Origin: Deltaproteobacteria bacterium
GTDB lineage: Bacteria > Myxococcota > XYA12-FULL-58-9 > JAFGEK01
DNA length: 64,000 nt
Reading direction: 5' to 3'
Assembly: GCA_016931625.1 (NCBI GenBank)
Contig: JAFGEK010000020.1
Location: forward strand, 39,110 to 103,109
Below, piece after piece: positions 31,550 to 46,608 of the stretch (position 1 is the first letter of the stretch; each line of letters starts with the position of its first letter). The notes beneath the pieces were generated by a model, which saw nothing but the letters and a program-made list of their open reading frames with translations, was not told where the DNA came from and searched no databases. The position numbers were made by a program, and so were the translations under genes.

Positions 31550-32467
31550 ATGACAATGCGTGAATTAAAAGGGATGATTGTTCCAAATATTACGCCATTT
31601 AAAAATGATGCTGCGCGTAGTCTCGATCTCGAAAGAATAGATAAATTAGTAGACTTCATCATTGATAAACAAAACGCTGATGCAATAATCGCTGTTGGAA
31701 CCACCGGCGAATCAACGTCATTGTCACATGATGAAAAAGAAGTGGTAATTTTACGCACATTGAAAGCTGTTAAGGAGCGAGTACCGGTACTGGCTGCAAC
31801 TGGTAGCGCTAATACACAAGAAGCTATTGCAATGACGCAGTTTTGCGAGCGTTCAGGTATTGCTGGTGTGCTTTTAGTATCGCCATATTATATCCGCCCT
31901 AATCAAGATGGTTTGTATCAACATTTTTCGGCAGTGGCACAAAATACTAAGTTACCGATAATACTGTATAACCATCCTGGTAGAACCGGCGTTTCAATTC
32001 AAGTTGATACCCTTATTCGTCTAGCGCAACGTTATGAAAATATAATCGGTATTAAAGATTGTCCAAATAATTTAGCTCTTTCTACTGATGTAGCCCGACG
32101 TTGTCGCTCTGAATTAGGCCGTTCATTTTCATTTTTAACCGGTGAAGATGAGTTTATTTATATGAATATTTGTCTTGGGGGCGATGGGGCGATTGCGGCT
32201 TCTGGACACTTATTAGGCAATGAAATTAAGCAAATGATAGACCTTTTTAACAAAGGTCAAGTTGAACAAGCGCGTAAATTGCAATTTATGATTACTGATT
32301 TAATACGTATGCTTTTTGTAATGCCTAGTCCAGCCCCACTTAAAGCTGCACTCGATATTTTGACAGAAGGCGAGGAGCTTGGTGGTCCAGTACGTTTGCC
32401 ATTAGTAGATGCACCTGAAGATCTGAAACAAAAACTTAAAATTGAATTAGCTCGCGTTAAAGGCTAA
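31550..32467 (+). CDS. Dihydrodipicolinate synthase family class I aldolase (DapA-like)
   Basis: AIIAVGTTGESTSLSHDEK, VLLVSPYY, GIKDC (the Schiff-base Lys context). About 305 aa. Confidence 0.75.
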   Translation: MTMRELKGMIVPNITPFKNDAARSLDLERIDKLVDFIIDKQNADAIIAVGTTGESTSLSHDEKEVVILRTLKAVKERVPVLAATGSANTQEAIAMTQFCERSGIAGVLLVSPYYIRPNQDGLYQHFSAVAQNTKLPIILYNHPGRTGVSIQVDTLIRLAQRYENIIGIKDCPNNLALSTDVARRCRSELGRSFSFLTGEDEFIYMNICLGGDGAIAASGHLLGNEIKQMIDLFNKGQVEQARKLQFMITDLIRMLFVMPSPAPLKAALDILTEGEELGGPVRLPLVDAPEDLKQKLKIELARVKG

Positions 32468-32582
32468 TTGCATTATTATAACGATTTTTCTTATTGTCAG
32501 TCGTTTTTTACTAGTACTGCACTGCGTCGTTAAGTTTTGTTGCAGTTGACACCAATACTGCGGCTCAGATACAGCCTGTAGA

Positions 32583-33473
32583 GTGAATCTTTTTGATTTA
32601 GCTGTTAGAGCAATAGATATTGCTAGTAAGGTTAAAGCAACCTTTAATACGGTGATGGCGCCTAGTGCCGAGTTAGAACAGCGCATTGATCGCATTCCTG
32701 CACAGTTAGGTCAATCAGGTGTAGATGCTTTTGGTTTTGACCCTCAGTACCTTAAGAAAGTTTTTGGCCTAGCTGTTTGGTTTTATCGTAGTTATTTCCG
32801 TGCTCAAGCTTTTGGTATTGAAAATATTCCTGATGGACGTTGTTTTATTGTAGCTAATCATTCTGGCCAATTGCCGTTTGATGCTGCAATGCTTACTGTT
32901 GCGGCTTTTGTAGAACGAGAGCCACCACGCTATTTGCGTGCAATGTTAGATCGATTCATACCATCAACACCTTTTGTGTCAGTATTTTTAGCCAGATGTG
33001 GACAAATTTTGGGTACTCAAGAGAACTGTAAACGATTGCTAGAAGCCCAAGAAGCAATATTAGTTTTTCCAGAAGGTGTTAAAGGACTTAACAAAACATG
33101 GGATGCACGCTATCAACTACAACGTTTTGGCAGTGGATTTATACGACTGGCGCTTGAGACAAATACTCCGATAATACCAACGATTGTAATTGGTGCTGAA
33201 GAGCAAGCGCCTGCTTTTGCTAATCTTGAATGGGTTGGAAAATTATTAGGTATTCCTGCATTACCCGTAACACCTTTCCACCCCTTAATCCCAGGTCTTG
33301 GTTTATTCCCAATGCCAACGCGCTATCGTATTTATTTTGGTAAACCACTTAATTTTTCAGGTGATGCAAATGATGATGATACGATTATTAGCGAAAAAGT
33401 TGAGCAAGTAAAACAAACCATGCAACAAATGATTACGGCTGGTTTATCCCAACGCGAGCATGTCTTTTGGTGA
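32583..33473 (+). CDS. Lysophospholipid/glycerolipid acyltransferase (PlsC-like, HX4D)
   Basis: VANHSGQLPFD (HX4D) and VFPEGV (the EGTR-like block). GTG start. Confidence 0.65.
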   Translation: MNLFDLAVRAIDIASKVKATFNTVMAPSAELEQRIDRIPAQLGQSGVDAFGFDPQYLKKVFGLAVWFYRSYFRAQAFGIENIPDGRCFIVANHSGQLPFDAAMLTVAAFVEREPPRYLRAMLDRFIPSTPFVSVFLARCGQILGTQENCKRLLEAQEAILVFPEGVKGLNKTWDARYQLQRFGSGFIRLALETNTPIIPTIVIGAEEQAPAFANLEWVGKLLGIPALPVTPFHPLIPGLGLFPMPTRYRIYFGKPLNFSGDANDDDTIISEKVEQVKQTMQQMITAGLSQREHVFW

Positions 33474-33497
33474 GGTTTAAAAAAAAGGTAGGTATAA

Positions 33498-34436
33498 ATG
33501 CGTATTTTACTCACCGGCAGCTCGGGTCGCTTGGGGCGGCGGGTGGCATTAAAGTTACACCGCAATCATTACGTAGTGGGTATTGATTCACGACCTCCTA
33601 ATTGTTTCCCGATTGAAATCGAGAATCATCAAATTGATTTACGTAGACGAACTGCTGAAAATATTTTGAAAGAAGGAAAATTTGATGCAGTAATGCATAT
33701 GGGGGTTACGCACAATTTTCGTTTCTCTAACGAAGAGCATTATACACGCAATATTTTTAGTACTGAGAAATTGCTACAGTTGATAGTAAAATACCACATC
33801 AAAAAATTAGTACTGCTTTCTTCTGGTGATGTTTATGGGCCAATAGCGACTAATAGTCATTTTATTGATGAAGACGCACCATTAATGGCAAGCCAATCGT
33901 CAACTGGCATGCGCACTTTAGTTGCTGTAGATCGAGCTGTGCAATCATTTTTTTGGCGTCATAATGAAATCGAAACCGTTATTTTAAGGCCTTGTCATAT
34001 AGTTGGTCCACATGTACGAAATGCTGCTTCAAAATATTTAAGGCTCAATATTGTACCCACTTTAATGGGATACGATCCCATGCTGCAGCTTATTAGCGAA
34101 GAAGATTTGTTGCCTTTAGTCGAAAATGCTCTAATGCCAGGTGTTCGTGGAGTGTTTAATTTGGCAGGCACTGAACCGGTTCCGCTGCATTATATATTAA
34201 AAATATTAAATAAGCCGACTTTGCCTCTCCCTTATGTGGTTTTGAAAACTTTTTTAGAACATGCTTTTAAATCACGTATGGTGTCTTTTGCACCACCCGA
34301 GCTTGATCATATACGCTTTAATGCCGTACTAGACACTCGTCGTTCTCAAGAAGTGCTTGGCGCAAAAATTACGCGTTTTCTTGAAAAAATACTCAAACCT
34401 TTTAAAGCTGGAAGTTTATATCCAGGTAGTAGTTAA
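33498..34436 (+). CDS. NAD-dependent epimerase/dehydratase (SDR-fold)
   Basis: MRILLTGSSGRLGRRVA is a Rossmann GxxGxxG motif. About 310 aa. Confidence 0.7.
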   Translation: MRILLTGSSGRLGRRVALKLHRNHYVVGIDSRPPNCFPIEIENHQIDLRRRTAENILKEGKFDAVMHMGVTHNFRFSNEEHYTRNIFSTEKLLQLIVKYHIKKLVLLSSGDVYGPIATNSHFIDEDAPLMASQSSTGMRTLVAVDRAVQSFFWRHNEIETVILRPCHIVGPHVRNAASKYLRLNIVPTLMGYDPMLQLISEEDLLPLVENALMPGVRGVFNLAGTEPVPLHYILKILNKPTLPLPYVVLKTFLEHAFKSRMVSFAPPELDHIRFNAVLDTRRSQEVLGAKITRFLEKILKPFKAGSLYPGSS

Positions 34437-34462
34437 TTTTAGTACTAGCTTACGGCTAACCA

Positions 34463-35596
34463 CTAAACAAGCAATGATAGCTGCTGTATTTTATCGATTA
34501 ATGCACCATGGGCAGTTGGACCGATTAAATGCTTGGTTTGCACCCATGATGTAGCAGGTTGATAGAACCGTTGTTTCCAGGTTTGTAAGCGTTTTCCTGT
34601 ATATAATAAAGTCTCATGAGAAATTTTTTTATTTTCAACAGCTAGCACTAATGCACGATACAATTCTAATACAATAGCTGGTTCATGGCAGGCCAAGAAA
34701 ACATTTATGCCTGCATTGACTCCAAGAGTAGCAATTTCGTCAATGCTAAAGTGATCAGCGAGCGCTTTCATCTCGATATCATCGCTAAGAATCACACCAT
34801 TAAAATTTAGTTCGTTTCGCAAATATTTTAATACTTGAGTTGAAATTGTGGCCGGGTGTTTTTCATCAAGTGATACAACAATCAGATGCGCAGTCATAAT
34901 TGCTCCAACGCCAACTTTAATAGCTTCATGAAATGGTGGCCATTCCAGTTCACGCAGTCGAGTTAAATTATGATCAACAAATGGCAATTCAAGGTGACTA
35001 TCTTTATCGGTGTCGCCATGGCCAGGAAAATGTTTACCACAACCGCCAATACCACCATTTTGTAGGCCAGCAATGAATGCAGAAGCTAGTTTACCAACTA
35101 ACTGTGGATTATTTGAAAATGATCGATCGCCAATTATTGGGTTTTGGGGATTGCTATCTACATCTAACACTGGGGCATAATTAATATCAAAATTTAAAGC
35201 CCTTAACTCTTGTGCGATTGCTTTAGCCACTGATGCTACGAGTTTAGGATCATTTAACTTACCCAGCTGACGCATTGAAGGCCAGATTGTTGCAGGCTCA
35301 CGAATGCGAGCTACGCGGCCACCTTCTTGATCTACAGAACATAATAATGGTTCATCTTTGCGGAAATGTTTTAACTCGCGATTAAACTCACAGATTTGTT
35401 CTAATGATTCAATATTTCGTGAAAACTGAATTATCCCTAGTGGTTGCACTTCTCGTAATAATTCACGCAATTCTGCGGTAATGCTAGTTCCATCAAAACC
35501 ACAGATAATCATATTGCCAATAGCACGACGTACTTCAGAACGAGGTAATAATATTTTTGTCATAGGTGCATATATCTCATTTCTACAAAGAAACAC
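34463..35596 (-). CDS. nagZ: Beta-N-acetylhexosaminidase (GH3, NagZ-like)
   Basis: KHFPGHGDTDKDSHLELP is the GH3 NagZ signature (KHFPGHG). The start is 35596 or an internal Met at about 35563. Confidence 0.8.
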   Translation of the reverse strand: MFLCRNEIYAPMTKILLPRSEVRRAIGNMIICGFDGTSITAELRELLREVQPLGIIQFSRNIESLEQICEFNRELKHFRKDEPLLCSVDQEGGRVARIREPATIWPSMRQLGKLNDPKLVASVAKAIAQELRALNFDINYAPVLDVDSNPQNPIIGDRSFSNNPQLVGKLASAFIAGLQNGGIGGCGKHFPGHGDTDKDSHLELPFVDHNLTRLRELEWPPFHEAIKVGVGAIMTAHLIVVSLDEKHPATISTQVLKYLRNELNFNGVILSDDIEMKALADHFSIDEIATLGVNAGINVFLACHEPAIVLELYRALVLAVENKKISHETLLYTGKRLQTWKQRFYQPATSWVQTKHLIGPTAHGALIDKIQQLSLLV

Positions 35597-36104
35597 ACAA
35601 CCCTAAATAGTAATTTGAGGTTGTATGTTTGTGGTTTTTTTAATCAGTAGACGATGAATTATCCATCGGCTCTGATACTGTAAATGGCTGATACGGAGCT
35701 GAAGGCGCATAGTTAGAATATGGGCTGTAATGACTGTATTAGGCTGTTTGAGTCATCTGTCTATGACTTTGGCTTTTAGCTGTAGTTGACGAATTATTGT
35801 TGTTCGTGTCTGCAGAGACACTATGTATCGCTAAATTATAAAAATATTATTCCTGAGTAGCCACAAATGTTACGATAATGTTGCATGTCAGGTTGCCTGT
35901 ATTTGGCAAATATCAAGCAATATTTTGCATTTAGCTATACAAACTTAGCCTTGTATTGTCACATAAATGATACACTTTAGCAGATAGACATTTGTAGAAA
36001 TAGGCATAATATTGCTTGAACGATATTACATTAAATAGCTTTTTTAAGGTTGTTCGCGGTTGGTACACTAAACCGCAAACGATACGTGAGTTTAAACTGG
36101 TGGT

Positions 36105-36710
36105 ATGTGCTTTGGCCATAATTATTATGAGGTTATTATAAGGTTTTCGTTTGTCTTTCGCATTACTGCAATTTCGCTCCTGATGTTTTCTATAGTGGCT
36201 TGTTCCAATAGTAAACAAGAAGAACGTAACCGTCCATGTGACGCTAATGATTTATGTGCTCCTAATTATACCTGCCAAGAATTTACTGATGAAGTAGCCG
36301 GTGTTACTAATAAACTATGTGTTACTTTACATTCTCTGGATTGTAGTTTAAGCGCAACTAATAGCGCACTTTGTATAAAAAATATCGCAACCACTGAAGA
36401 TACTACCGAAAGCTGTGACGTGCGCTGGGATATTTTGTCGTGTTTCGAAGGTGGTCAAGGTTGTGATGGCGGTTGTCGTATATGTAATTGCAAATCAGAC
36501 GACCCCGATTGCACTGAATATGTATGGAGTAAATGTGAAACTAGTATTGCAACTTTAGGTCAAAAACATAGTTGTAGCAATACTAATGATGACTGCACTA
36601 AAAAAGGATTAGGTGCTGAAGCTACTTGCGTTAATATTGGTGCTGTCTCTCCTAATTATGTTTGTTCAGCGGTTAAATCTTCACAATGCTCCACAGGCTT
36701 TATTACATAA
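36105..36710 (+). CDS. Secreted Cys-rich lipoprotein, family A (paralog of 22879)
   Basis: LLMFSIVACSNS lipobox. Repeats DANDLCAPNYTCQE and TNDDCTKK...YVCS. About 28 Cys. Sits in a low-GC region. Confidence 0.5.
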   Translation: MCFGHNYYEVIIRFSFVFRITAISLLMFSIVACSNSKQEERNRPCDANDLCAPNYTCQEFTDEVAGVTNKLCVTLHSLDCSLSATNSALCIKNIATTEDTTESCDVRWDILSCFEGGQGCDGGCRICNCKSDDPDCTEYVWSKCETSIATLGQKHSCSNTNDDCTKKGLGAEATCVNIGAVSPNYVCSAVKSSQCSTGFIT

Positions 36711-37191
36711 TTCTCCAACATTAGCCGCTGGTGTTATTTGATTACTATTTATAGTCAACATTATTTGCTCCTTTTTTTAAAATGCCGTTAATATTAGCAA
36801 AAAGTTATATTAAATATTGTTGTAAAACACTTTTAGGTGTTGCCGGAAAATATGTAAAGTAGTTGCTTTGAAAATAGTCTTTAACGAAAATGTTACAAAC
36901 TAACCGCGTTACATAATTTATGTCACAGTTATGTTGCATGCGGTTAAGAGTGAAACGTGCGATAGCATTACTATGCTTATATTATTAAAATAAAATGGGT
37001 TAAGTCTTTTTGTTTGTCGCGAAAATGATTCAAACTTGTTGCTATGATTTTACGCCATCGTAATCTCTTTGTGTGAATATAACTTTGTATGAATTATTTA
37101 AATTTGGCTTCATATCAATACAGTAATCTTTCAGATCTAAACATTGGTTATTTGTTATTACCGGTTGTGGTATAAAAAGGAGAGCAGTATA

Positions 37192-39468
37192 ATGATTGAA
37201 ACAGCCAAACAATTATTGGCTTATAATTTGCCTGAAAATATTTCATTTTCTTCAAACGAAGACCAAACTAAAATTATTAATGATAATAAAAAGAAATTAA
37301 CTCTTCCTAAAAAAAGAATTGGTTTTACTTTTGATTCATCTGTAGCTGTAGCACCAGAAGCTACTAAATCATTAGTAAAATTTTATCAAGGTATCGATAG
37401 TAATCGCGCGCATAGCGATAAAGTAACACCGGCTATTTCAGATAAAAATAAAAAGTTATACCTACCATCAAAAAGTACTTGTTTGTTTTCTGATTCATCA
37501 TTAACTATGCCATCTTCATTAAGTGTATCTTCAACACAACTGGGATTTAATCTTGTTAGTAAAAATGGCATCATCGGGAACAACATTTATTATAAAAATA
37601 TTGAGGATGTTATTGATGCGTTAAATAAAGCGAAAATGGTTCAGGATGCGAGTGCAGAAAAAATAATAAGGCAACAATTTAATGAACTTAAAAAACAATT
37701 GCCACAGTTTCAAAGAATTTTTAATGAATTACAAATCACAGAATCACATTTGTTGAAATGGTTAGCAACAGGAAGCATTCCGAACAATGTGATAGAGGTT
37801 TATATAAGGCATCAGCAGGCTGACAATAAATCAAAATATCTAGAAAAGAAAATAGCAAACAGTATTTACTTGTTACTTAAATATGGTGAGTATGTTGCCC
37901 ATTTTCGCGGCGAGATAGAAGCTGAAACAGGAGAAAATCCGCTGCTGCTTACTATGCAGGCTATGCAAACCAAATTTTGGCAAAAAGAACAAAATATTGT
38001 TGTAAGTAATGCTACAAATATTTTTTATAATCTTAAGGATAATAGATTTAAATTAGCGATGGCCGAGCATAGTCTTGATAGTTTAAACGTAAAGTTAAAC
38101 TATCAAGTCTTAAATCTATCCCCAAATGATGAAGAAATCATCAAGACACAAAAAATGGTCGAGCGTGCTAAAATAGCAATTAATAATTATAGCGATCTTA
38201 TTGCCAATCAAGAGAAAGCCGCACGTTCAGTTTTAACAAGTTTGTATCAGCGGCATGCCAAACGAGTTACCCAAAAAACACATAATAATGATCCTGAGCG
38301 CCTTAATGCTGGTCGTTATGCAGCAGCGAATGCTGTAGTGGAAGCAGATGTTAAACATAAAATTGATGCAACTGATATTGGCAATGAAATCAAAAGCGCT
38401 AAACAAATTGAGTTATTACTAATAAATATAAGAACCACACTACATTGGGTCCAAGAGACAATTTCAATCAACACATATTGGACAGAAGACAGCATTACTC
38501 GTGCTGATATAATAGAAGCTTTAGAAAAGATTAGACCACAACTGCAATCAATTCATGAGATACTGCGCAATGAAAAAGTAAATGAAATAAATGATAATAC
38601 CATCGTCGAAATAGCAAAATACTATGCAACGGCAGTTTTTTGTTTAAGTGATGCCTATGAAGCAGAGGCCGATGATCTTGAACAACAATGTCAAGTATCT
38701 GCAACCCCACAAGTGGGAGTAAGATTAGCTCTTCTCTGCCACAATGCTGCGATGTTATCACTCGAGATTGCTGAAATAGAACTTTTGGCGGCAGATGCGC
38801 GCGTCTCTATGGAAGTTGGCAAGAAAACCTTTGATGAGCAAGACGAGCAAAAACTAAATCTCCATGATTTTGTTAATTACCTCGAAGAACGAGCAGCAGA
38901 TAAGGATACCCAACTAAAAGCTTATCAAGAAACCTTAAAAAAACTTAACTCTTTACCAATATCTACCTTAGGAGCAACCTATCCAACTCAAATTTATAGT
39001 ATCGTTGGTCGTAATGAGTTGCAAATACTCTATACTACTTGGAGGTTACATAACTCCCAAAAAGAATACGACGCAATAATTAGTCAACGAGATGAGTTTG
39101 CTGCACGTCTTACCGCAGGAGCTTGGCCTGAATATCAAAAACAAAAGCTAAAACTGCAACTCTCCAAAACAGAAAAACAAAAGACTAAAGAAAATTTACA
39201 AATCAAAATTAAAATACTGGATAAAAAACGTAAGGTAGAAATTGCTCAAGAACAAAGCAACAAAGAGACGCAAAACTTTCTTGATTCTCGTATGACTGAC
39301 GTTATCATTGGCGAAGAATTTTTGATTCCGTTTAATAAAGCAAATCCGTTAATAAATCTTCAAAGTGCTGGTGTCGGCGATATCTACATAAAAGCATTTG
39401 ACGCATCTAAAAGAAATTCCATTATATGGCATCAACGTGAAATAAATGCGTTGTTAATATATTGGTAA
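37192..39468 (+). CDS. Large hypothetical protein (758 aa). Lys/Glu/Gln/Asn-rich, predicted helical or coiled-coil, no signal peptide, no recognisable domain.
   Basis: A long ORF in a low-GC island. ATG at 37192 with AGGAG 9 nt upstream (the ORF-track start at 37144 is probably too early). No catalytic motifs found by eye (no HExxH, GxSxG or CxxC). Confidence 0.6.
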   Translation: MIETAKQLLAYNLPENISFSSNEDQTKIINDNKKKLTLPKKRIGFTFDSSVAVAPEATKSLVKFYQGIDSNRAHSDKVTPAISDKNKKLYLPSKSTCLFSDSSLTMPSSLSVSSTQLGFNLVSKNGIIGNNIYYKNIEDVIDALNKAKMVQDASAEKIIRQQFNELKKQLPQFQRIFNELQITESHLLKWLATGSIPNNVIEVYIRHQQADNKSKYLEKKIANSIYLLLKYGEYVAHFRGEIEAETGENPLLLTMQAMQTKFWQKEQNIVVSNATNIFYNLKDNRFKLAMAEHSLDSLNVKLNYQVLNLSPNDEEIIKTQKMVERAKIAINNYSDLIANQEKAARSVLTSLYQRHAKRVTQKTHNNDPERLNAGRYAAANAVVEADVKHKIDATDIGNEIKSAKQIELLLINIRTTLHWVQETISINTYWTEDSITRADIIEALEKIRPQLQSIHEILRNEKVNEINDNTIVEIAKYYATAVFCLSDAYEAEADDLEQQCQVSATPQVGVRLALLCHNAAMLSLEIAEIELLAADARVSMEVGKKTFDEQDEQKLNLHDFVNYLEERAADKDTQLKAYQETLKKLNSLPISTLGATYPTQIYSIVGRNELQILYTTWRLHNSQKEYDAIISQRDEFAARLTAGAWPEYQKQKLKLQLSKTEKQKTKENLQIKIKILDKKRKVEIAQEQSNKETQNFLDSRMTDVIIGEEFLIPFNKANPLINLQSAGVGDIYIKAFDASKRNSIIWHQREINALLIYW

Positions 39469-41399
39469 AAGATGATAAGGCTAAAATATCAGAAATGTTT
39501 ACCCAGACTGCGTTGGCTTGTCTGCGACAAATATTTTTTGGTACTAATTTTGCATACAGTGAAAGCACAGGTTTCTATAAGCTGCTTGATGAAATTAAAG
39601 ACATCGTTACCATCTCGTCTCAAAATGCCGTTAGCTCTTATTATAATACAATTATGTCTGATTTGAGTTATGGGATTGAACAGATAAAAAGACAAATGTT
39701 TGATGAGCTAACAGAACAACAAACCTTTGCGACGGTTAAAGGTATAGACTGTATCAGTGATAAATATGATGCATTTCGTGATCATGGTGGTTTAGTTGTT
39801 GGTACTATTTTTGGGCGTATCAATAGAGGAATATCGCAAGATAAAAATCAACAAAAACTGTCTGATGAAATCAGTGCGCTAACAAATATTGCAAAACAAG
39901 ATTTACAAATGGCTATAGATATCTATTGTCGACTTACAAAAGAAGAGGAGCGCTTAGCTTATATAACTGCATTACGCAGCAATAACGCTGAAATGTTGTC
40001 TCAATTTTGTAATAACAATTTTTTACAAGCCCAAGCCATAATAAACGCATGGAATACTACTAATACCGGTCAATTGTTTGTTGGTACGAATGAAACTGAG
40101 GGCATATTTTTAAATGAAGCAATTACTCAAAGCCTGGATCTTACTCAAGTAGTATTTGCGCCAAATCTACCTGATGTAAATTCTCGCCTTGAAAATTTAC
40201 AGATTAGTACGGAGAAAACAACTAAAAACCTACAAGATAATTGGGTTGCTCTCCAAGTACTCGATGTTGCAACCTTGATGCTACTAGGTGGAGCCGTAGA
40301 AGCAGCTGGTGTGGCTACTCTTGCTCAAGCCAGCAATCTAGTTAAAATATCTACTACCGCCAACAACTTAAGTAAAGGGACACAAGTACTTATATTCGCT
40401 AGTCGTGGTGTTTTGGCGGTTAAAAAAGGATTCCAAACCTTTCAAAAAGCAAAAACCATACTAATTAGCCCAATACGTAACCAAGTAATTAATCTACCAG
40501 GTGTAGTAGGTACTTCTGGGCGCTTTCTTTATGATCTCGCTTATTACCGCACCATTGGGATGACACTCGATGTTATTAATACCAGTGCTCATAAAGCTTT
40601 TGGTAATGACAGTAATAGAGCCGCTTTTGTACAACTATTAGTAATGATGACCAAGCTTGGTCCCAGTTTTAATCCATATCGAATTGGCATTTCTGCAGGT
40701 TTTGAAGTTGGGATTGAAAAACTTTATCAAGAAATCGAGAAAATGCCAGAGCAGGCATTAAATCAGGCGGTCAACGGACATTTAACTCCTGCACAAGAAA
40801 AGGCACTAAAACAAAAAATGATTATGTGGCATTACATAGGTCGCGCTACAGTTGATGTTACTAAAATTTTAGTAAGACGCTGGCAACGTTATAATTCTGG
40901 TACAGAGGCAACGACCCAACAACAAGTTACTGAACTTTCAAAAGTTTTACGTAATAATGGGGCAGTTATAACCTCTGGTACGACATTAGCTCTTACCAGT
41001 TTATTGCGTGGCTATTCATTATCTCTCTGTGAAGTCGGCCATTTTCGTCAGCCACCATCAGTTTTTGAAAATTATCGTAGCTCAATAATTAAAGCATTAG
41101 GAAGTAATGCTTGCCCACGCGCACAAGTAGCATTGCGCGAGTATCTTGATGATCAATTACTGGTCCTTGCAGCAGAACGCTCAGGATTAGATAAACTTCA
41201 ACCAAATAACGATGTTGTTAACACAGAGGTACTAAATAAAAGTATTGAAAGCGTCAAAAATGATTTAATGGCGTTTGGTGTAGCGAAAACAGACGAAGAA
41301 GCCGAAAAATTAGCGCGTGAGCATATTACTAACTGTGTTTTACTTAGTGCTTTGTGTGATACTTCCAACGAAAGAACTAGTAATAAAGTCATAAAATAG
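39462..41399 (+). CDS. Large hypothetical protein (about 645 aa) with a central Gly/Ala-rich hydrophobic segment, translationally coupled to 37192..39468
   Basis: A 7-nt overlap with the upstream gene. TTG at 39462 or ATG at 39495. Central segment VLDVATLMLLGGAVEAAGVATLAQA. No recognisable domain. Confidence 0.55.
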   Translation: MVKDDKAKISEMFTQTALACLRQIFFGTNFAYSESTGFYKLLDEIKDIVTISSQNAVSSYYNTIMSDLSYGIEQIKRQMFDELTEQQTFATVKGIDCISDKYDAFRDHGGLVVGTIFGRINRGISQDKNQQKLSDEISALTNIAKQDLQMAIDIYCRLTKEEERLAYITALRSNNAEMLSQFCNNNFLQAQAIINAWNTTNTGQLFVGTNETEGIFLNEAITQSLDLTQVVFAPNLPDVNSRLENLQISTEKTTKNLQDNWVALQVLDVATLMLLGGAVEAAGVATLAQASNLVKISTTANNLSKGTQVLIFASRGVLAVKKGFQTFQKAKTILISPIRNQVINLPGVVGTSGRFLYDLAYYRTIGMTLDVINTSAHKAFGNDSNRAAFVQLLVMMTKLGPSFNPYRIGISAGFEVGIEKLYQEIEKMPEQALNQAVNGHLTPAQEKALKQKMIMWHYIGRATVDVTKILVRRWQRYNSGTEATTQQQVTELSKVLRNNGAVITSGTTLALTSLLRGYSLSLCEVGHFRQPPSVFENYRSSIIKALGSNACPRAQVALREYLDDQLLVLAAERSGLDKLQPNNDVVNTEVLNKSIESVKNDLMAFGVAKTDEEAEKLAREHITNCVLLSALCDTSNERTSNKVIK

Positions 41400-41552
41400 T
41401 ATAAGCTATGTAGCACTTATTGTTTATATGGGGATTGCTAAAAAATTAACAATACCTAATTTTATAAGTAGAAGGATTTTTTCTGTAATGGGAGCATAAT
41501 GCGTTCAGCTATTTAAAATGATATCTTTATTTATGTGTGAGTGAGGTATTAT

Positions 41553-44234
41553 ATGACGAATAGCACTTACACTGCGCAACTTCCAGAGTTCGATGTTAAA
41601 GAAACCGATGAATGGGTTGAAGCCCTAGATGATGTTGTTGAATATCAAGGTGCTTTACGCGCACGTTTTTTACTTGAGAAAATTTTGGCACGTGCTCGTG
41701 AATTAAAAATTGGTTTGCCCAATTTAACTCAAACTCCTTATATTAATAGTATCCCTCCACATGAAGAGCCACCTTACCCGGGTGACGAAGCACTTGAAAA
41801 AAGAATTCGTCGCATAATTCGTTGGAATGCTATGGCTATGGTCTATCGAGCCAATAAACATTTCCCGGGTATCGGCGGACATGTTGCAACATATGCGAGC
41901 TCTGCAAGTTTATATGAGATTGGTTTTAATCATTTTTTTAAAGGTAAACAACATCCTGATGGTGGTGACCAAGTATATTTTCAGGGTCATGCAGCCCCTG
42001 GTATTTATTCGCGTGCATATTTGTATGGTAGTTTAAATGAAAATCAGCTTGAACACTTTCGCCGTGAAACACTCGGAGAGGGTTTGTCTTCTTATCCACA
42101 TCCTTGGCTAATGCCACAATTTTGGGAATTTCCCACAGTCTCAATGGGCTTAGGACCGATTGCCGCGATTTATCAGGCCCGTTTTAATCGTTATCTTCAT
42201 GCTCGAGGTTTAAAAGACACAAGTAAACAACGAGTTTGGGCTTTTATCGGCGACGGGGAGTGTGATGAACCTGAAGCGCTGGGAGCAATAGATCTAGCGG
42301 CCCGTGAAAGACTTGAGAATTTAACCTTTGTGATTAATGCCAATCTACAACGATTAGATGGGCCGGTACGCGGCAATAGTAAAATTATTCAAGAGTTAGA
42401 AGGCACATTTCGTGGTGCAGGCTGGGAAGTAATTAAAGTTATTTGGGGAACACAATGGGATGAGTTAATTAAGCGTGATTATGACGGAGTGCTAATAAAG
42501 CGACTTAATGAAGTAGTAGATGGGCAATTTCAAAAATATATTACTGAATCTGGTGATTATATTCGTAAAGATTTTTTTGGCGTTGACCCCAGATTGCTTG
42601 AGTTAGTTAAAGACTTTGATGATAACTACCTGCAAAAAATGCGAAGAGGTGGTCATTCGTTAACTAAAGTTTATGCTGCCTATAACAAAGCTATCGACCA
42701 TCAACGTCGACCAACGGTGATTATCGCGCAAACAGTAAAAGGTTGGACGTTGGGCTATGGTTTTGCTGCAGCAAATGTTGCACATCAATTAAAGAAGCTT
42801 GATCTCGATCAATTAAAACGTTTTCGTGATACGCTGCAATTACCGATACCTGACAGTAAAATCGAAGAAGCACCATATTATCATCCAGGTGCTGACAGCC
42901 CAGAAGTTAAATATATGCATGAACGTCGTCAAAATTTAGGTGGCTTTTCGCCATCACGAATTTCACACAAAGTTTCTATACCCAAACCAGCTACTGATAT
43001 TTATCAAGAATTTTATCATGGTTCTAAAGATGAAATGGAAGTATCTACCACAATGGCGTTTGTACGACTATTACGTCAACTCATGCGTGATAAAAATTTT
43101 GGCAAATTAATAGTTCCAATCATACCTGATGAAGCACGTACTTTTGGTATGGATGCATTCTTTCGAGAGTTCGGTATTTATTCCGCAAATGGGCAAAAAT
43201 ACGAGCCTGTTGATGCTCACATGTTGCTTAATTATCATGAAGCTAAAGATGGGCAATTAATTGAAGAGGGCATTACTGAAGCTGGTAGTATGGCCACTTT
43301 TACCGCTGCTGGTACTGCATATGCTACCCATAATGTGCCCATAATACCGTTTTATATGTTCTATTCAATGTTTGGTTTGCAGCGTATTGGTGATCAAGCT
43401 TGGGCTTTTGGTGATAGTCGTGGTCGTGGATTCTTGATGGGAGGTACTGCTGGTCGAACTACTATGCTTGGTGAAGGCTTACAGCATCAAGATGGTAATA
43501 GCCATATTTACGCTTTAGCTTATCCAACGATGCAAGCATATGACCCTGCCTATGCTTACGAAGTCGCAGTAATAATCAAAGATGGCTTACGCCGTATGTT
43601 TAGTGATAATGAAGATATATTTTATTATATCACTTTATATAACGAAAATTACAAAATGCCGCCTAAACCTGAAGGTGTTGATGAAGGTATCGTAAAAGGT
43701 ATGTATCTTGATCGAGCCGCCCTCAGTGATATCAAGGGTCCGAGAGTGCAATTGTTTGGTAGTGGGGCTCTGCTGCGAAGTGCAATAGCGGCACAAGAAA
43801 TATTGGCTACTAAATATAATGTCGCCGCAGATGTATGGTCGGTTACAAGTTATCAGCAATTATATCGTGAGGCACGTAGTTGTGAGCGTCATAATCGCTT
43901 ACATCCTAGCAATACACCTAAACTCCCATATGTTACGCAATTGCTTGAAGGCCATCAAGGCCCAATAATTGCCACTAGTGATTATGTTAGTGAGTTACCC
44001 AGCATTGTCTCACGATATTTGTCACGACGTTTTACCGCACTTGGTACTAACGGATTTGGTAGATCTGACACGCGTGAGGCTTTGCGCTACTTTTTTGAAG
44101 TTGATGCAGCCTACATTGCACAAGCCGCACTTGCTTCGTTGGCGCAAGATGGTACGATTGAAACAAAAGTTGTTGAGCAGGCGATTAAAGACCTTGATAT
44201 TGACCCTGAAAAACTAGATGCTGCCATCGCGTGA
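41553..44234 (+). CDS. aceE: Pyruvate dehydrogenase E1 component (homodimeric type)
   Basis: 893 aa. The N-terminus ...ETDEWVEALDDVVEYQGALRARFLLEKILARAREL and the TPP motif GDGECDEPEALGAI...NLQRLDGPVRGN are AceE hallmarks. ATG at 41553 with GAGG upstream (the ORF-track GTG at 41541 is less likely). Confidence 0.9.
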   Translation: MTNSTYTAQLPEFDVKETDEWVEALDDVVEYQGALRARFLLEKILARARELKIGLPNLTQTPYINSIPPHEEPPYPGDEALEKRIRRIIRWNAMAMVYRANKHFPGIGGHVATYASSASLYEIGFNHFFKGKQHPDGGDQVYFQGHAAPGIYSRAYLYGSLNENQLEHFRRETLGEGLSSYPHPWLMPQFWEFPTVSMGLGPIAAIYQARFNRYLHARGLKDTSKQRVWAFIGDGECDEPEALGAIDLAARERLENLTFVINANLQRLDGPVRGNSKIIQELEGTFRGAGWEVIKVIWGTQWDELIKRDYDGVLIKRLNEVVDGQFQKYITESGDYIRKDFFGVDPRLLELVKDFDDNYLQKMRRGGHSLTKVYAAYNKAIDHQRRPTVIIAQTVKGWTLGYGFAAANVAHQLKKLDLDQLKRFRDTLQLPIPDSKIEEAPYYHPGADSPEVKYMHERRQNLGGFSPSRISHKVSIPKPATDIYQEFYHGSKDEMEVSTTMAFVRLLRQLMRDKNFGKLIVPIIPDEARTFGMDAFFREFGIYSANGQKYEPVDAHMLLNYHEAKDGQLIEEGITEAGSMATFTAAGTAYATHNVPIIPFYMFYSMFGLQRIGDQAWAFGDSRGRGFLMGGTAGRTTMLGEGLQHQDGNSHIYALAYPTMQAYDPAYAYEVAVIIKDGLRRMFSDNEDIFYYITLYNENYKMPPKPEGVDEGIVKGMYLDRAALSDIKGPRVQLFGSGALLRSAIAAQEILATKYNVAADVWSVTSYQQLYREARSCERHNRLHPSNTPKLPYVTQLLEGHQGPIIATSDYVSELPSIVSRYLSRRFTALGTNGFGRSDTREALRYFFEVDAAYIAQAALASLAQDGTIETKVVEQAIKDLDIDPEKLDAAIA

Positions 44235-44240
44235 ATATAT

Positions 44241-45254
44241 TTATATGATTTTAATGTTTTTAAAAATACGCATGAGTAAATAAATTGAAGGGACTAGAAT
44301 AATTGAGCCTAGTCCGAGCGCCCATAACACCATTGTTTGAGTTACCGTTGTGTAACTAGCTGCAGTTAAAGTGATATCTGGCATAATCAGGTAAGGGGCC
44401 TGTGCCGCACCCCAACTAATGACTAGTAATGCTATTTGCAGTACTGCAGCTAATCGGGCCAAATAAAATTTGTTTCGCAACAGTGCACTAAACGCAAATA
44501 TGGCTGCAGCTAATATTCCAAGTAGCAAAGGTATTGACCATGCTTGTGTCACTAGTTGGATGAAAAAAATAGGGGCTTCGGCCCATGCCAAAATAATTGC
44601 AAAAAGTGCGAGTACAAAAACCGCAATGCTGCACAACAAGGCTACGCGACGAAAAACAACGATTAAATGTTTTTGTTCATCAAGTGATTGTGCTTCAATA
44701 ATAAGATATACAGCGGCGATATATGCAAATAAAGCAACTGTATGCAACCCAGTTATAATTGGAAAAAGACCCAGCCAAGGTTGCCAATAACTACCCGTGA
44801 ACGTTCCATTAACAAAACGCAAACGACCGGAACTAACTGTACCAATAATTATGCCAAGCATTAGTGGGGCGATAATACTGGCTAGCGCAAAAACCAATTG
44901 CCAATATTTTTGTATAGTCGGTGAAGCATAATCAGAGGTGTAAAACGCAAATGCAGCACCACGTAACACTACACTAACTAAAAATATAAGTATGGGTATA
45001 AAAAGACTTATTGATAAGGCAGCAAACGCCGGCGGAAAACAAGTAAACAAGAGCACTACTATTAATATAAGCCAAACATGATTAGCTTCCCAAACCGGAC
45101 CGATCGCTTGTCTAATTAGCAAACGTTGCTCATTTTTATTTTGCCCAAAAGCTAGGGCACTAAGTACTCCACCACCAAAATCAGCACCGCCAAGTAAACT
45201 GTAAATTAATATGGCTGCTAATAATACCCAACCTAAAACATCAGCAGTGGACAT
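44241..45254 (-). CDS. cydB: Cytochrome bd ubiquinol oxidase subunit II
   Basis: 337 aa polytopic membrane protein starting MSTADVLGWVLLAAILIYSLLGGADFGGG (CydB N-terminus). Overlaps the cydA stop. Confidence 0.85.
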   Translation of the reverse strand: MSTADVLGWVLLAAILIYSLLGGADFGGGVLSALAFGQNKNEQRLLIRQAIGPVWEANHVWLILIVVLLFTCFPPAFAALSISLFIPILIFLVSVVLRGAAFAFYTSDYASPTIQKYWQLVFALASIIAPLMLGIIIGTVSSGRLRFVNGTFTGSYWQPWLGLFPIITGLHTVALFAYIAAVYLIIEAQSLDEQKHLIVVFRRVALLCSIAVFVLALFAIILAWAEAPIFFIQLVTQAWSIPLLLGILAAAIFAFSALLRNKFYLARLAAVLQIALLVISWGAAQAPYLIMPDITLTAASYTTVTQTMVLWALGLGSIILVPSIYLLMRIFKNIKII

Positions 45255-46608
45255 TGGATTGCTCCGAAGTTATTGCTGATGATGTCATTGTTGCCATGGT
45301 TGGTTGTGAACCCTTATGAATCATACGGCTAAGTAAAATAGTAACTGACACCCCAAGCAAAGCAAACAAACTAATTATAACCCAAAATGGCGTGGCTAAG
45401 TTTGGCATAGGGGTTACGGCAGCACTAGTTAGCATCGTATTCATAATCGTATAAGGTTGACGTCCCCACTCAGTTACTAACCAACCGGTTTCAAGAGCTA
45501 TATAACCTATTGGGGTGCACAGCATGATGATAGCTAACAAGGTGTGATTAAAAACAAATTCTTGTTTGCGCCAGCGTGTGCGTAACATGGCTGCGTATAT
45601 TAAAAGCACGACAAATGCCATTAAAAATCCCAAGCCCACCATAATTTGAAAAGCTAAATGTACGAGTAAAGTATTTGGCCAGGTGTGGCGGGGAAACTCT
45701 TCAAGACCAAGCACTTTTGCATGAGGGTCATGAAAAGCTAAAAGTGACAAGCCATAAGGTATTTTAAGTGCATACGGTGTTGTCATAGTGTCATCGTCGG
45801 GTATGCCACCAATATGCAAGGGGGCAGCGTTGGTAGTAAGATAGTGACCTTCGATAGCTGCAAGCTTGCGTGGTTGGTTAGTTGCAACATGCCGTGCAGA
45901 AAAATCTCCAGAAATTGGTTGCAACAGTGCAGCAATACCACCAACGCCAATTGCAATTAAAAGTGCGGTTCGATGAAAAGTACTGCTAGGCTGTCGCCAT
46001 AAATAAAAGGCGTGAATGCCAGCCACGGCAAAACCAACAGCGGCATAACATGAAAGCAGTACATGTATTACTTCTTCAGCAAAACCAGGTGGAAACATGG
46101 CAACGATAGGGGAGATATTATGCGGCTTACCGTCAATCAGTGCAAAACCAACCGGGTTGTTCATCCAGGCGTTAGTAAGGGTTACCAAAAATCCAGATAA
46201 GGCGCTGCTTAAAGCAATGATGATTCCAGAGAAAAAATGTAACTGGCGGCTGACACGCTCCCAACCGTAAAGATAGATGCCTAAAAATATAGCTTCGATA
46301 AAAAATGCAAAACCTTCAAGAGAAAAAGGAAAGCCAATTAATGGTCCGGCAAAATCCATAAAGCGCGGCCAAAGCAAGCCAAGCTCAAATGAAATGACCG
46401 TGCCGGTAACTGCGCCGACGGCAAATAGTATCGCAACACCCTTAGACCATTTTTGCGCCAACTCGCGATACACCGCTTTGCCGCTACGCAACCAACGCCA
46501 TTCGGCGATAGTCATCATTAAGGGTAGGGCGACACCAATAGCCGCAAAAGTAATATGAAAGGCTAAAGTTAAGCCCATTAGCCAGCGGGCATACATGAGA
46601 TCAGTCAC
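45241..46608 (-). CDS. cydA: Cytochrome bd ubiquinol oxidase subunit I
   Basis: 455 aa. ...MGLTLAFHITFAAIGVALPL...EWRWLRSG... and the Q-loop region ...GWLVTEWGRQPY... are CydA signatures. Confidence 0.9.
   Translation of the reverse strand: MTDLMYARWLMGLTLAFHITFAAIGVALPLMMTIAEWRWLRSGKAVYRELAQKWSKGVAILFAVGAVTGTVISFELGLLWPRFMDFAGPLIGFPFSLEGFAFFIEAIFLGIYLYGWERVSRQLHFFSGIIIALSSALSGFLVTLTNAWMNNPVGFALIDGKPHNISPIVAMFPPGFAEEVIHVLLSCYAAVGFAVAGIHAFYLWRQPSSTFHRTALLIAIGVGGIAALLQPISGDFSARHVATNQPRKLAAIEGHYLTTNAAPLHIGGIPDDDTMTTPYALKIPYGLSLLAFHDPHAKVLGLEEFPRHTWPNTLLVHLAFQIMVGLGFLMAFVVLLIYAAMLRTRWRKQEFVFNHTLLAIIMLCTPIGYIALETGWLVTEWGRQPYTIMNTMLTSAAVTPMPNLATPFWVIISLFALLGVSVTILLSRMIHKGSQPTMATMTSSAITSEQSNVHC

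What the first reader, a model, noticed from the sequence alone, without database searches (positions are those of the whole stretch)
35597..41552. Lower-GC island with two translationally coupled large orphan proteins (758 aa and 645 aa), a candidate novel two-component effector/toxin-like module
The segment between nagZ (35596) and aceE (41553) has long A/T-rich non-coding stretches (about 500, 480 and 150 bp).

GC content appears visibly lower here. I counted about 28-37% G+C on three 60-nt lines, against about 40% on lines within purA and purB.

It encodes a Cys-rich lipoprotein (36105-36710) and an operon of two large ORFs overlapping by 7 nt (37192-39468 and 39462-41399).

Neither large protein has a signal peptide, a catalytic motif I can recognise, or resemblance to any family I know.
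- Protein 1 is Lys/Glu/Gln/Asn-rich and reads as helical or coiled-coil.
- Protein 2 has a Gly/Ala-rich hydrophobic stretch (LLGGAVEAAGVATLAQA) reminiscent of membrane-inserting helices.

Size, coupling, composition and the housekeeping flanks are all consistent with a horizontally acquired cargo module of unknown function, which would be either a secreted effector pair or a toxin with its partner. However, no integrase, tRNA or direct repeats bound the segment.
Basis: partly seen in the sequence, partly recalled or inferred. Interest (0 to 1): 0.75.

Follow-up and report, generated by a model that had tools for sequence, protein, structure and literature searches.

The report
Orphan two-gene operon beside nagZ
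Two large adjacent genes in an uncultured bacterium's genome encode proteins with no detectable relatives in any searched database; their low GC looks native rather than imported, and nothing supports the toxin or effector idea.

Summary
Between nagZ and aceE lie a Cys-rich lipoprotein gene and two tightly linked ORFs, P1 (758 aa) and P2 (634/645 aa). The segment is the lowest-GC stretch of its length in the window: 35.1% against 40.2%.

The "acquired island" reading is not supported.
- GC3 (0.24-0.25) and synonymous codon usage (z -1.0 to +1.5) are typical of the window.
- The GC deficit comes from P1's K/N/I-rich composition and from 19% AT-rich non-coding DNA.
- There is no integrase, tRNA or convincing flanking repeat, and no plasmid, phage or viral homologue.

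P2 has no relative among 1.84 billion representative proteins. P1 has none in a word-indexed search of 5.8 billion. The host is a 40%-GC offshoot of a 60-70%-GC Myxococcota-like clade, with no close sequenced relative. Eight of the window's 43 large ORFs lack any Pfam domain.

In 7 of 9 relatives, nagZ faces a conserved ~240-aa gene, never aceE. The segment therefore marks a synteny break, not a simple insertion.

Both large proteins look soluble and helical. P2's "membrane helix" scores like a soluble protein's buried helix.

A tandem-heptamer motif found upstream of both the lipoprotein gene and P1 suggests co-regulation.

Function remains unknown. Interest is low to moderate.

The parts
34463..35596 (-). 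nagZ (beta-N-acetylhexosaminidase), the left flank. Its probable start is ATG 35563. It is the last gene of a conserved block that continues with an epimerase, an acyltransferase, an inositol monophosphatase-family gene, Mpl, an AmpH-like gene and LdcA.
   Evidence: Pfam GH3 E=5.6e-80 and NCBIfam NF003740 at 252.6 bits against a 207-bit cutoff. The block is syntenic in relatives at 45-70% aa identity.
35597..36104 (.). A 508-nt AT-rich intergenic region upstream of the lipoprotein gene. It carries two tandem-heptamer sites (35867-35887 and 35957-35973) and a 107-nt imperfect palindrome (35913-36019).
   Evidence: GC is 0.356. Motif evidence is, and the palindrome is I1. There is no Rfam hit and no credible small ORF.
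36105..36710 (+). A predicted Cys-rich lipoprotein of 201 aa. The signal peptide is followed by the lipobox IVA-C33, and the mature part has 20 Cys in 169 aa. It matches no family and has no internal repeat.
   Evidence: (h-region dG +0.94). No Pfam, NCBIfam, PADLOC or viral hits. Codon usage z is +1.5.
36711..37191 (.). A 481-nt very AT-rich intergenic region upstream of P1. It carries two tandem-heptamer sites (36920-36940 and 37037-37053) and the P1 ribosome-binding site AAAGGAG (37177-37183).
   Evidence: GC is 0.297. The RNA fold z-score is -0.12, so there is no structure signal.
37192..39468 (+). P1 (758 aa; NCBI MBN1959603.1, JW841_01545, hypothetical protein). It has no signal peptide and no TM segment. 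The N-terminal ~135 residues are predicted unstructured and the rest mostly helical. It has the highest FYMINK content of the 43 ORFs.
   Evidence: Codon usage z is -1.0.
39462..41399 (+). P2 (645 aa from TTG 39462, or 634 aa from ATG 39495; NCBI MBN1959604.1, JW841_01550, hypothetical protein). It has helical N- and C-terminal regions. The central part (about residues 250-400 of the 634-aa form) is basic, Gly-rich and moderately hydrophobic, and no TM helix is predicted.
   Evidence: Codon usage z is +0.08.
41400..41552 (.). A 153-nt intergenic region before aceE. It contains the right arm (41507-41528) of a weak inverted repeat whose left arm is at 36019-36040.
   Evidence: The repeat matches 18 of 22 bases and is marginal.
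41553..44234 (+). aceE (pyruvate dehydrogenase E1), the right flank.
   Evidence: TIGR00759 at 1336.7 bits against an 859.9-bit cutoff. The best identity among GTDB species representatives is 63%.

Best explanation
The segment holds three lineage-restricted but native-looking genes, not a recently imported island.

The host is an uncultured Myxococcota-like bacterium. Its lineage has fallen from about 60-70% GC, as seen in its relatives, to 40%.

The GC dip has three sources:
- P1's extreme K/N/I/E/Q-rich composition.
- Twice the usual share of AT-rich non-coding DNA.
- A slight contribution from P2.

Synonymous sites look like the rest of the genome.

The genes sit exactly where this lineage's gene order departs from its relatives. 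The conserved ~240-aa neighbour of nagZ is missing, and lipoprotein-P1-P2-aceE stand in its place.

The proteins are either young or weakly constrained, and have diverged past recognition under AT pressure.

How it most likely works (inferred):
- P1 and P2 are made from one mRNA, with starts at most 26 nt apart, as soluble and mainly alpha-helical non-enzymatic proteins.
- They act together as a heteromeric structural or adaptor complex in the cytoplasm, perhaps peripherally at the membrane through P2's basic, moderately hydrophobic centre.
- The operon and the separately transcribed Cys-rich lipoprotein gene are switched on together by an OmpR/PhoB-type response regulator that binds tandem TGTYRC heptamers upstream of both.

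What is shown:
- Gene structure.
- Native codon usage.
- Orphan status.
- The synteny break.
- The shared motif.
- The absence of TM or signal features in P1 and P2.

What is inferred:
- Complex formation.
- Cellular location.
- The regulator.
- Any physiological role.
For: - Real genes: uninterrupted ORFs of 758 and 645 codons in 35%-GC DNA, a gene-like GC1>GC2>GC3 pattern, a strong RBS for P1, and an independent Logan assembly that is 100% identical over 13,086 nt from mid-P1 through P2 and aceE.
- Native composition: GC3 is 0.243, 0.250 and 0.254 against a window range of 0.21-0.39. Leave-one-out synonymous-codon z-scores are +1.50, -1.02 and +0.08, inside the spread of the other 40 ORFs.
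- Source of the GC dip: P1 has the lowest GC2 (0.310) and the highest FYMINK (0.334, +2.1 sd). P2 ranks 10th and the lipoprotein 30th. Non-coding DNA is 19% of the segment. The intergenic GC values (0.30-0.36) match other intergenic regions in the window.
- Lineage-wide AT shift: seven orthologue pairs have FYMINK 0.23-0.27 here against 0.09-0.22 in a 68%-GC relative. The relatives are 60-70% GC.
- Under-sampled lineage: best AceE identity is 63% among 185,579 species genomes, and best NagZ identity is 70% in 5.8 billion proteins.
- Unannotatable ORFs are common here: 8 of 43 ORFs of at least 150 aa have no Pfam domain.
- Orphan status.
- Synteny break.
- Soluble and helical.
- Shared motif: the 17-base pattern occurs only at 35867 and 36920, with 0.01 matches expected. 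Four of the 11 looser tandem-heptamer matches lie in the two intergenic regions, which make up 1.5% of the window.
Against: - Absence from all relatives at this locus, together with a local synteny break, is also what an old, fully ameliorated insertion would leave. Native codon usage excludes only recent transfer.
- P1 was searched only through a word index plus tblastn of plasmids, phages and viral contigs, not exhaustively.
- There is no direct evidence that P1 and P2 interact, stay in the cell, or are expressed.
- The structure models are unreliable (pLDDT 35-38), so even 'helical' rests on weak prediction.
- The resemblance of the motif to a response-regulator site comes from memory of pho-box architecture, and no regulator was identified.
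- Pore-forming toxins and translocators can have only moderately hydrophobic insertion segments, so the dG test does not exclude membrane activity.
Confidence: 0.5

Rival explanations
1. This is an old, compositionally ameliorated horizontally acquired module that encodes a secreted effector pair or a two-component membrane-active toxin. P1 and P2 would leave the cell by a non-Sec route, and P2's Gly/Ala-rich segment would insert into a target membrane.
For: - The genes are absent from all 9 relatives' nagZ neighbourhoods, and the locus is a synteny break.
- The segment has the lowest GC in the window.
- The two large linked proteins have no signal peptide and no enzymatic motif.
- P2's most hydrophobic segment is rich in small residues.
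- A weak inverted repeat of 18/22 brackets exactly the three genes, and only 8 of 1000 Markov simulations reach that score.
Against: - Synonymous codon usage and GC3 are native.
- There is no integrase, transposase, tRNA or target-site duplication.
- 3 of 78 real intergenic pairs give an equally good inverted repeat.
- No homologue was found in plasmids, phages, IMG/VR, or for P2 anywhere in 1.84 billion representatives, whereas transferred cargo usually has relatives elsewhere.
- No toxin, effector or defence family matches.
- The 64-kb window has no T3SS, T4SS or T6SS. It has only yajC-secDF and an SCPU chaperone-usher cluster 15 kb away.
- There is no small immunity or chaperone ORF.
- P2's best segment has dG +3.3, like soluble NagZ.
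Confidence: 0.15
2. P1 and/or P2 are extremely diverged members of an already known helical protein family, for example a cytoskeletal or scaffold, membrane-remodelling or regulatory family. Their sequence signal would have been erased by the lineage's AT drift. They would then be orphans only at sequence level, and a structure comparison would place them.
For: - There is a strong lineage-wide amino-acid shift, with P1 at its extreme.
- Even housekeeping proteins are only 45-70% identical to those of the nearest relatives.
- All-helical, low-complexity-prone proteins lose detectable homology quickly (established knowledge).
Against: - No sub-threshold hit recurs across libraries. The best are Rep_fac_C E=0.035, FliX E=0.019, a PHROG of unknown function E=0.0033 and IS608 TnpA E=0.063, which are unrelated to each other.
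- The profile of the relatives' conserved ~240-aa nagZ neighbour does not match P1 or anything else in the window.
- The idea could not be tested structurally because the models failed.
Confidence: 0.25
3. The segment is an artefact: a chimeric assembly or binning contaminant, or non-coding or pseudogenised DNA with spurious long ORFs.
For: - It comes from a MAG.
- Each protein is a singleton found in one sample only.
- The Logan contig ends inside P1.
Against: - An independent Logan assembly of SRR13394437 is 100% identical across 13,086 nt, including the C-terminal half of P1, P2, aceE, cydAB and beyond.
- Codon usage matches the flanking genes on both sides.
- ORFs of 758 and 645 codons are wildly improbable by chance at 35% GC.
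- P1 has a good RBS.
Confidence: 0.03

Closest known systems
Taxonomically restricted (ORFan) genes in poorly sampled bacterial lineages
   Same: - There are no detectable homologues.
- Codon usage is native.
- The amino-acid composition is more AT-shifted than that of conserved genes.
- The location is at a synteny break.
- The host genome has many other ORFs without domains, 8 of 43.
   Different: - The proteins are unusually large for ORFans (758 and 634/645 aa).
- They are arranged as a linked pair.
- A motif is shared with a neighbouring lipoprotein gene, which suggests an integrated, regulated function rather than drifting junk.
Binary alpha-helical pore-forming toxins of the ClyA superfamily (XaxAB / YaxAB type); comparison from my own knowledge
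   Same: Two adjacent co-oriented genes encode proteins that have no Sec signal and are predicted mostly helical. One partner carries the more hydrophobic segment.
   Different: - No Pfam match was found at E<=0.1.
- The proteins are about twice the size of XaxA/XaxB-type subunits.
- The hydrophobic segment is no more hydrophobic than that of a soluble enzyme.
- The genomic context has no pathogenicity or phage-lysis features.
Type III secretion translocator pairs (IpaB/IpaC, YopB/YopD, SipB/SipC); comparison from my own knowledge
   Same: Each is a pair of helical proteins in one operon with a central hydrophobic region in one member and no Sec signal.
   Different: - The 64-kb window has no T3SS genes and no TPR class-II chaperone gene upstream.
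- No translocator Pfam family matches.
- No pair of TM-grade helices is present.
Pho-box-type operators of OmpR/PhoB-family response regulators (E. coli consensus CTGTCAT-A(A/T)A(T/A)-CTGTCA(C/T), from memory)
   Same: Tandem heptamers with a TGTCAC/TGTTAC/TGTTGC core repeat at an 11-bp period. There are two sites in each of the two upstream regions, all on the coding strand.
   Different: - The sites lie about 130-250 nt from the start codons rather than next to an identified -10 element.
- No cognate regulator or pst/pho genes are in the window.
- Binding has not been tested.

Membership tests
Horizontally acquired genomic island | Composition that is atypical at selectively near-neutral sites (GC3, synonymous codon usage). 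| tested here: not met
   GC3 is 0.24-0.25 against the window's 0.21-0.39. Codon z-scores are +1.50, -1.02 and +0.08.
Horizontally acquired genomic island | Mobility genes (integrase, transposase, conjugation or phage genes) inside or beside the segment. | tested here: not met
   No Pfam, NCBIfam or PHROG hits for the three ORFs. There are no further ORFs of note in the intergenic regions.
Horizontally acquired genomic island | Boundaries at a tRNA/tmRNA gene or flanking direct repeats. | tested here: not met
   The only tRNA is at 11808-11884. The direct repeats are short and at chance level. A bracketing inverted repeat of 18/22 is marginal.
Horizontally acquired genomic island | The segment interrupts a gene adjacency that is intact in relatives. 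| tested here: not met
   None of 9 relatives has aceE next to nagZ. Seven have a conserved ~240-aa gene there. The segment is absent from the relatives, but the locus is a rearrangement point rather than a clean insertion.
Horizontally acquired genomic island | Homologues in unrelated taxa or on mobile elements. | tested here: not met
   The only hits are the queries themselves. Plasmids, phages and IMG/VR give none.
Two-component alpha-helical pore-forming toxin (ClyA/XaxAB superfamily) | A sequence or profile match to the family. | tested here: not met
   Nothing relevant in all of Pfam-A at E<=0.1, and no PDB sequence match.
Two-component alpha-helical pore-forming toxin (ClyA/XaxAB superfamily) | A hydrophobic membrane-inserting head or hairpin. 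| tested here: inconclusive
   P2's best 19-mer has dG +3.26 kcal/mol, like soluble NagZ (+3.70), while TM controls score -1.3 to -5.0. Toxin hairpins can be only moderately hydrophobic.
Two-component alpha-helical pore-forming toxin (ClyA/XaxAB superfamily) | An elongated helical-bundle fold. | not testable with these tools
   The single-sequence AF2 models have pLDDT 37.7 and 35.0, and no homologues exist to build an alignment.
Type III secretion translocator pair | Encoded in a T3SS locus with a dedicated TPR chaperone. | tested here: not met
   No such genes occur among the 43 ORFs of the window or as small ORFs. The rest of the MAG was not available.
Known anti-phage defence systems | A match to a PADLOC model. 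| tested here: not met
   0 families for all three proteins at E<=0.1.
Bacterial lipoprotein (ORF 36105-36710 only) | An N-terminal signal with a basic n-region, a hydrophobic h-region and the lipobox [LVI][ASTVI][GAS]C. | tested here: met
   R14 and R20 form the n-region. The h-region FSFVFRITAISLLMFSIVA has dG +0.94. The lipobox is I-V-A-C33. No dedicated predictor was available, and the start codon is not verified because this exact product is not in the protein collection.
OmpR/PhoB-type response-regulator operator | Tandem direct heptamer repeats at a 10-11-bp period upstream of the regulated genes. | tested here: met
   TGTYRC-N5-TGTYRC occurs at 35868, 35957, 36921 and 37037. The strict 17-base pattern matches 2 sites against 0.01 expected.
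OmpR/PhoB-type response-regulator operator | Binding by a cognate regulator, and regulated expression. | not testable with these tools
   No regulator was identified in the window, and no expression data exist.

The most novel reading that the evidence does not exclude
P1 and P2 found a new family of two-component, membrane-active helical proteins. This would be a binary toxin, translocator or envelope-remodelling complex. It would be deployed together with a Cys-rich surface lipoprotein under a PhoB-like stress or starvation regulon, in a low-GC offshoot of the Myxococcota.
Probability: 0.1. Interest if true: 0.6.

Novelty: new member of a known kind. Interest (0 to 1): 0.25.

Why it matters
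As it stands, this matters little beyond the organism. It shows how a "low-GC island of orphan genes" in a MAG can be produced by amino-acid composition, intergenic DNA and sparse sampling of the lineage, rather than by horizontal transfer. That is a useful caution for island calling from raw GC.

Two proteins of about 650-760 aa, one of which (P2) has no relative among 1.84 billion representative sequences, are real dark matter. If either turned out to have a new fold or a membrane-active function, it would define a new family. Nothing found here makes that likely enough to give it priority.

The side observation may be of more general interest. The lineage has dropped from about 65% to 40% GC, with a proteome-wide FYMINK shift, inside a Myxococcota-like clade.

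Tried and rejected
1. Family assignment. Pfam, NCBIfam, PADLOC, PHROGs and PDB sequences gave only isolated, mutually unrelated sub-threshold hits.

2. Homologue discovery.
- Two word-indexed searches of 5.8 billion proteins returned only the queries.
- One exhaustive phmmer of P2 against 1.84 billion representatives returned only the query.
- tblastn against plasmids and phages, and IMG/VR scans, gave nothing.
- tblastn against 80 AceE loci and 34 NagZ loci gave nothing.

3. Structure. The AF2 single-sequence models have pLDDT 37.7 and 35.0. I did not run fold search, because matches to such models are meaningless.

4. My by-eye idea that P1's N-terminus is homologous to the relatives' conserved ~240-aa nagZ neighbour. 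I rejected it because a 4-sequence profile, run with all filters off, found nothing in the six-frame window (best E=1.4, at an unrelated ORF).

5. P1 and P2 as paralogues, or as internally repetitive proteins. Rejected.

6. The lipoprotein as a relative of the window's 1171-aa MopE-motif protein. Rejected.

7. Terminal inverted repeats of a mobile element (36019/41507). They are nominally unusual, reached in 8 of 1000 simulations, but are matched by 3 of 78 real intergenic pairs. There is no target-site duplication and no transposase, so I treat them as chance.

8. Sigma-54 promoter reading of the shared motif. Rejected on reading the sequence: the GG-to-GC spacing is 2 nt too long.

9. Structured RNA, riboswitch or small ORFs in the long intergenic regions. 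None found.

10. Classic coiled coil. Heptad periodicity is barely above shuffles.

11. TM helix in P2. Not supported by the Hessa scale with in-window controls.

12. Source-sample literature. SRR13394437 was not found.

13. Synteny from GTDB AceE loci. These were uninformative because the best identity is 63% and the hits are spread over many phyla.

Full report
**What is in the sequence.**

The segment 35597-41552 lies between nagZ and aceE.
- nagZ is 34463-35596 on the - strand. Its likely start is ATG 35563, as in the 366-aa NCBI product. It matches Pfam GH3 and the NCBIfam NagZ equivalog above cutoff.
- aceE is 41553-44234 and matches TIGR00759 above cutoff.

The segment contains three + strand ORFs.
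- ORF 36105-36710 encodes 201 aa. It has 21 Cys, a hydrophobic signal region, and the lipobox I-V-A-C33.
- P1 is 37192-39468 and encodes 758 aa. The sequence AAAGGAG lies 6 nt upstream of its ATG.
- P2 is 39462-41399 and encodes 645 aa.

The non-coding stretches are 508, 481 and 153 nt, which is 19% of the segment.

The P2 start is ambiguous.
- TTG 39462 has no Shine-Dalgarno sequence, overlaps P1 by 7 nt, and was the choice of PGAP.
- ATG 39495 lies 26 nt after the P1 stop and was chosen in the Logan assembly.

The two genes are certainly linked. Translational coupling is plausible but not shown.

An independent Logan assembly of run SRR13394437 is 100% identical over 13,086 nt, from mid-P1 through P2, aceE, cydAB and beyond. 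The region is therefore not an assembly chimera.

**Is it a compositional island?**

The numbers say yes.
- The segment has 35.1% GC, against 40.2% for the rest of the window.
- It is the lowest of all 5956-nt windows.

The cause is not a foreign mutational background.
- GC3 of the three ORFs is 0.243, 0.250 and 0.254, inside the window's range of 0.21-0.39.
- I scored each ORF's synonymous-codon likelihood against a model built from the other ORFs, leaving that ORF out. The z-scores are +1.50, -1.02 and +0.08, well inside the spread of the other 40 ORFs.
- The codon outliers in the window are elsewhere, at cydA/MopE and the chaperone-usher cluster.

The GC deficit has three sources.
- P1 has the lowest GC2 of the 43 ORFs (0.310) and the highest FYMINK fraction (0.334, +2.1 sd).
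- The two intergenic regions have 30-36% GC, which is normal for intergenic DNA here.
- There is twice the usual share of non-coding DNA.

P2 (37.3% GC, FYMINK rank 10) and the lipoprotein gene (rank 30) are unremarkable.

**The host lineage.**

NCBI names the source a "Deltaproteobacteria bacterium" MAG. P1 is MBN1959603.1 (JW841_01545) and P2 is MBN1959604.1. Both are annotated as hypothetical proteins.

Several window features are typical of Myxococcota, by my own knowledge:
- Ser/Thr kinases with PEGA domains.
- A 1171-aa protein with MopE motifs.
- SCPU chaperone-usher genes.
- Sigma-54 activators.

The nearest named NagZ relatives are Myxococcota and Deltaproteobacteria MAGs.

The lineage is poorly sampled.
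- The best AceE identity among 185,579 species genomes is 63%.
- The best NagZ identity among 5.8 billion proteins is 70%.

All nine relatives' loci that I retrieved are 60-70% GC. Seven orthologue pairs have FYMINK 0.23-0.27 here against 0.09-0.22 in a 68%-GC relative. This lineage has therefore undergone a large AT shift across its whole proteome, and P1 sits at the extreme of that continuum.

Eight of the 43 ORFs of at least 150 aa have no Pfam domain. They include a run of three at 22879-25558 with ordinary GC. Unannotatable genes are thus common in this genome.

**Orphan status.**
- P1 and P2 hit only themselves in the word-indexed 5.8-billion-protein search.
- P2 hits only itself in an exhaustive phmmer against 1.84 billion cluster representatives.
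- Pfam, NCBIfam, PADLOC, PHROGs and PDB sequences give nothing significant.
- Plasmids and phages (tblastn) give nothing.
- IMG/VR gives nothing.
- P1 and P2 are not paralogues and have no internal repeats.

**Synteny.**

The nagZ-epimerase-acyltransferase-(inositol monophosphatase)-Mpl-AmpH-like-LdcA block is conserved in relatives at 45-70% identity.

On the other side of nagZ, 7 of 9 relatives carry a conserved, divergently transcribed ~240-aa protein (MGRDLLYKPPVP...). Profile E-values for three further relatives (L113-L115) run from 1e-16 to 8e-98. Beyond that gene the order varies.

None of the relatives has aceE, P1, P2 or the Cys-rich lipoprotein there. The window has no copy of the ~240-aa family.

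The segment therefore lies exactly at a lineage-specific break in gene order. It is not an insertion into an ancestral nagZ|aceE junction. This fits either local rearrangement with gene birth or rapid divergence, or an old and fully ameliorated acquisition. The data cannot separate the two.

**Mobile-element and toxin hallmarks.**
- The only tRNA is 24 kb away.
- There is no integrase or transposase.
- Direct repeats are at chance level.
- An inverted repeat of 18/22 (36019-36040 / 41507-41528) brackets the three genes. Only 8 of 1000 Markov simulations reach that score. However, 3 of 78 real intergenic pairs do as well, and there is no target-site duplication. I treat it as chance.
- The window has no T3SS, T4SS or T6SS.
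- There is no small chaperone or immunity ORF.
- No Rfam family or RNA-structure signal is present in the intergenic regions.

**What the proteins look like.**

Neither large protein has a signal peptide, a Walker A motif, HExxH, or any other simple motif.

The AF2 single-sequence models are unreliable, with pLDDT 37.7 and 35.0.
- P1: they suggest only an unstructured N-terminal ~135 residues, followed by long helices.
- P2: they suggest only helical ends around a less regular, basic, Gly-rich centre.

I did not run fold searches on such models.

Heptad periodicity barely exceeds shuffles, so the proteins read as helical rather than as classic coiled coils.

Controls from the same window give these values:

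| Protein | Type | Best 19-mer dG (kcal/mol) |
|---|---|---|
| P2 | candidate | +3.26 |
| NagZ | soluble control | +3.70 |
| CydA, CydB, SecF, MCP | TM controls | -1.3 to -5.0 |

P2 is not predicted to be an integral membrane protein. Conditional insertion, as in toxins, cannot be excluded.

**A regulatory clue.**

A 21-nt motif occurs at 35867 and at 36920.
- ATGTTACGATAATGTTGCATG lies 218 nt before the lipoprotein ATG.
- ATGTCACAGTTATGTTGCATG lies 252 nt before the P1 ATG.

Its 17 fixed bases match only these two places in 64 kb, against 0.01 expected.

The motif is a tandem heptamer with an 11-bp period. The looser pattern TGTYRC-N5-TGTYRC finds 11 sites in the window, against 4.1 expected. 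Four of the 11 lie in these two intergenic regions, all on the + strand.

This is the architecture of OmpR/PhoB-type operators. That comparison, including the pho-box consensus, is from my memory and was not tested here. The motif suggests that the lipoprotein gene and the P1-P2 operon are co-regulated and functionally connected.

**Conclusion.**

- The overlap between P1 and P2 is uncertain.
- The coiled-coil signal is weak.
- The hydrophobic stretch in P2 is not of TM grade.

The proteins are real, linked orphans at a non-conserved locus. The evidence offered for horizontal acquisition is explained by amino-acid composition and intergenic DNA, and nothing points positively to an effector or toxin.

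My best reading has confidence of about 0.5. The three genes are native, lineage-restricted and co-regulated. P1 and P2 form a soluble helical, non-enzymatic complex.

The rivals are:
- Extremely diverged members of a known helical family (0.25).
- An old, ameliorated acquired toxin or effector module (0.15).
- An artefact (0.03).

Interest is low to moderate. Orphan genes in under-sampled MAG lineages are expected, and no mechanism or new system emerges from the evidence.

Noticed in passing
window 35867-35887, 35957-35973, 36920-36940, 37037-37053: Tandem-heptamer sites (TGTYRC-N5-TGTYRC, 11-bp period) occur twice upstream of the lipoprotein gene and twice upstream of P1. The strict 21-nt form is unique to these two intergenic regions (2 matches against 0.01 expected). 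The architecture resembles a pho box or an OmpR-family operator.
   Followed up: partly
whole window compared with L082, L107-L115: This MAG is about 40% GC, while every retrievable relative (NagZ 58-70% identical, syntenic block conserved) is 60-70% GC. Orthologues show a strong FYMINK-up, GARP-down shift. This is a marked GC collapse within a Myxococcota-like clade.
   Followed up: partly
L107 9182-9934, L109 9160-9885, L111 1458-2168, L082 39-788, L114 1322-2008, L115 3808-4575 (all - strand in locus orientation): A conserved ~240-aa protein with no Pfam domain (MGRDLLYKPPVP...AEGMHRRIAKxLGIK) is divergently transcribed from nagZ in 7 of 9 relatives. It is absent from the 64-kb window.
   Followed up: partly
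window 36019-36040 and 41507-41528: An inverted repeat of 18/22 brackets exactly the lipoprotein-P1-P2 block. Only 8 of 1000 Markov simulations reach that score, but 3 of 78 real intergenic pairs match it. There is no target-site duplication and no transposase.
   Followed up: yes
window 35913-36019: A 107-nt imperfect palindrome (25-nt arms, 80% complementary, 57-nt loop) lies in the nagZ-lipoprotein intergenic region. Its function is unknown and it has no Rfam match.
   Followed up: no
window 22879-25558 and 10095-11507, 5619-6188: Five further ORFs of 161-471 aa have no Pfam domain, including three consecutive ones with ordinary GC (0.41-0.42). I did not search them for homologues.
   Followed up: no
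window 45241-50218 and 56744-61027: The real synonymous-codon outliers of the window are cydA plus the 1171-aa MopE-motif protein (z -2.6 and -4.1) and the SCPU/chaperone-usher pilus cluster (z -2.3 to -2.8). The flagged segment is not among them. These regions also have higher GC3.
   Followed up: no
window 25628-35596: nagZ closes a conserved cluster that looks like peptidoglycan recycling: LD-carboxypeptidase LdcA, an AmpH-like beta-lactamase-fold protein, an Mpl-type Mur ligase and NagZ, interleaved with an inositol monophosphatase-family gene, an acyltransferase and an epimerase. The same order is kept in distant relatives.
   Followed up: partly
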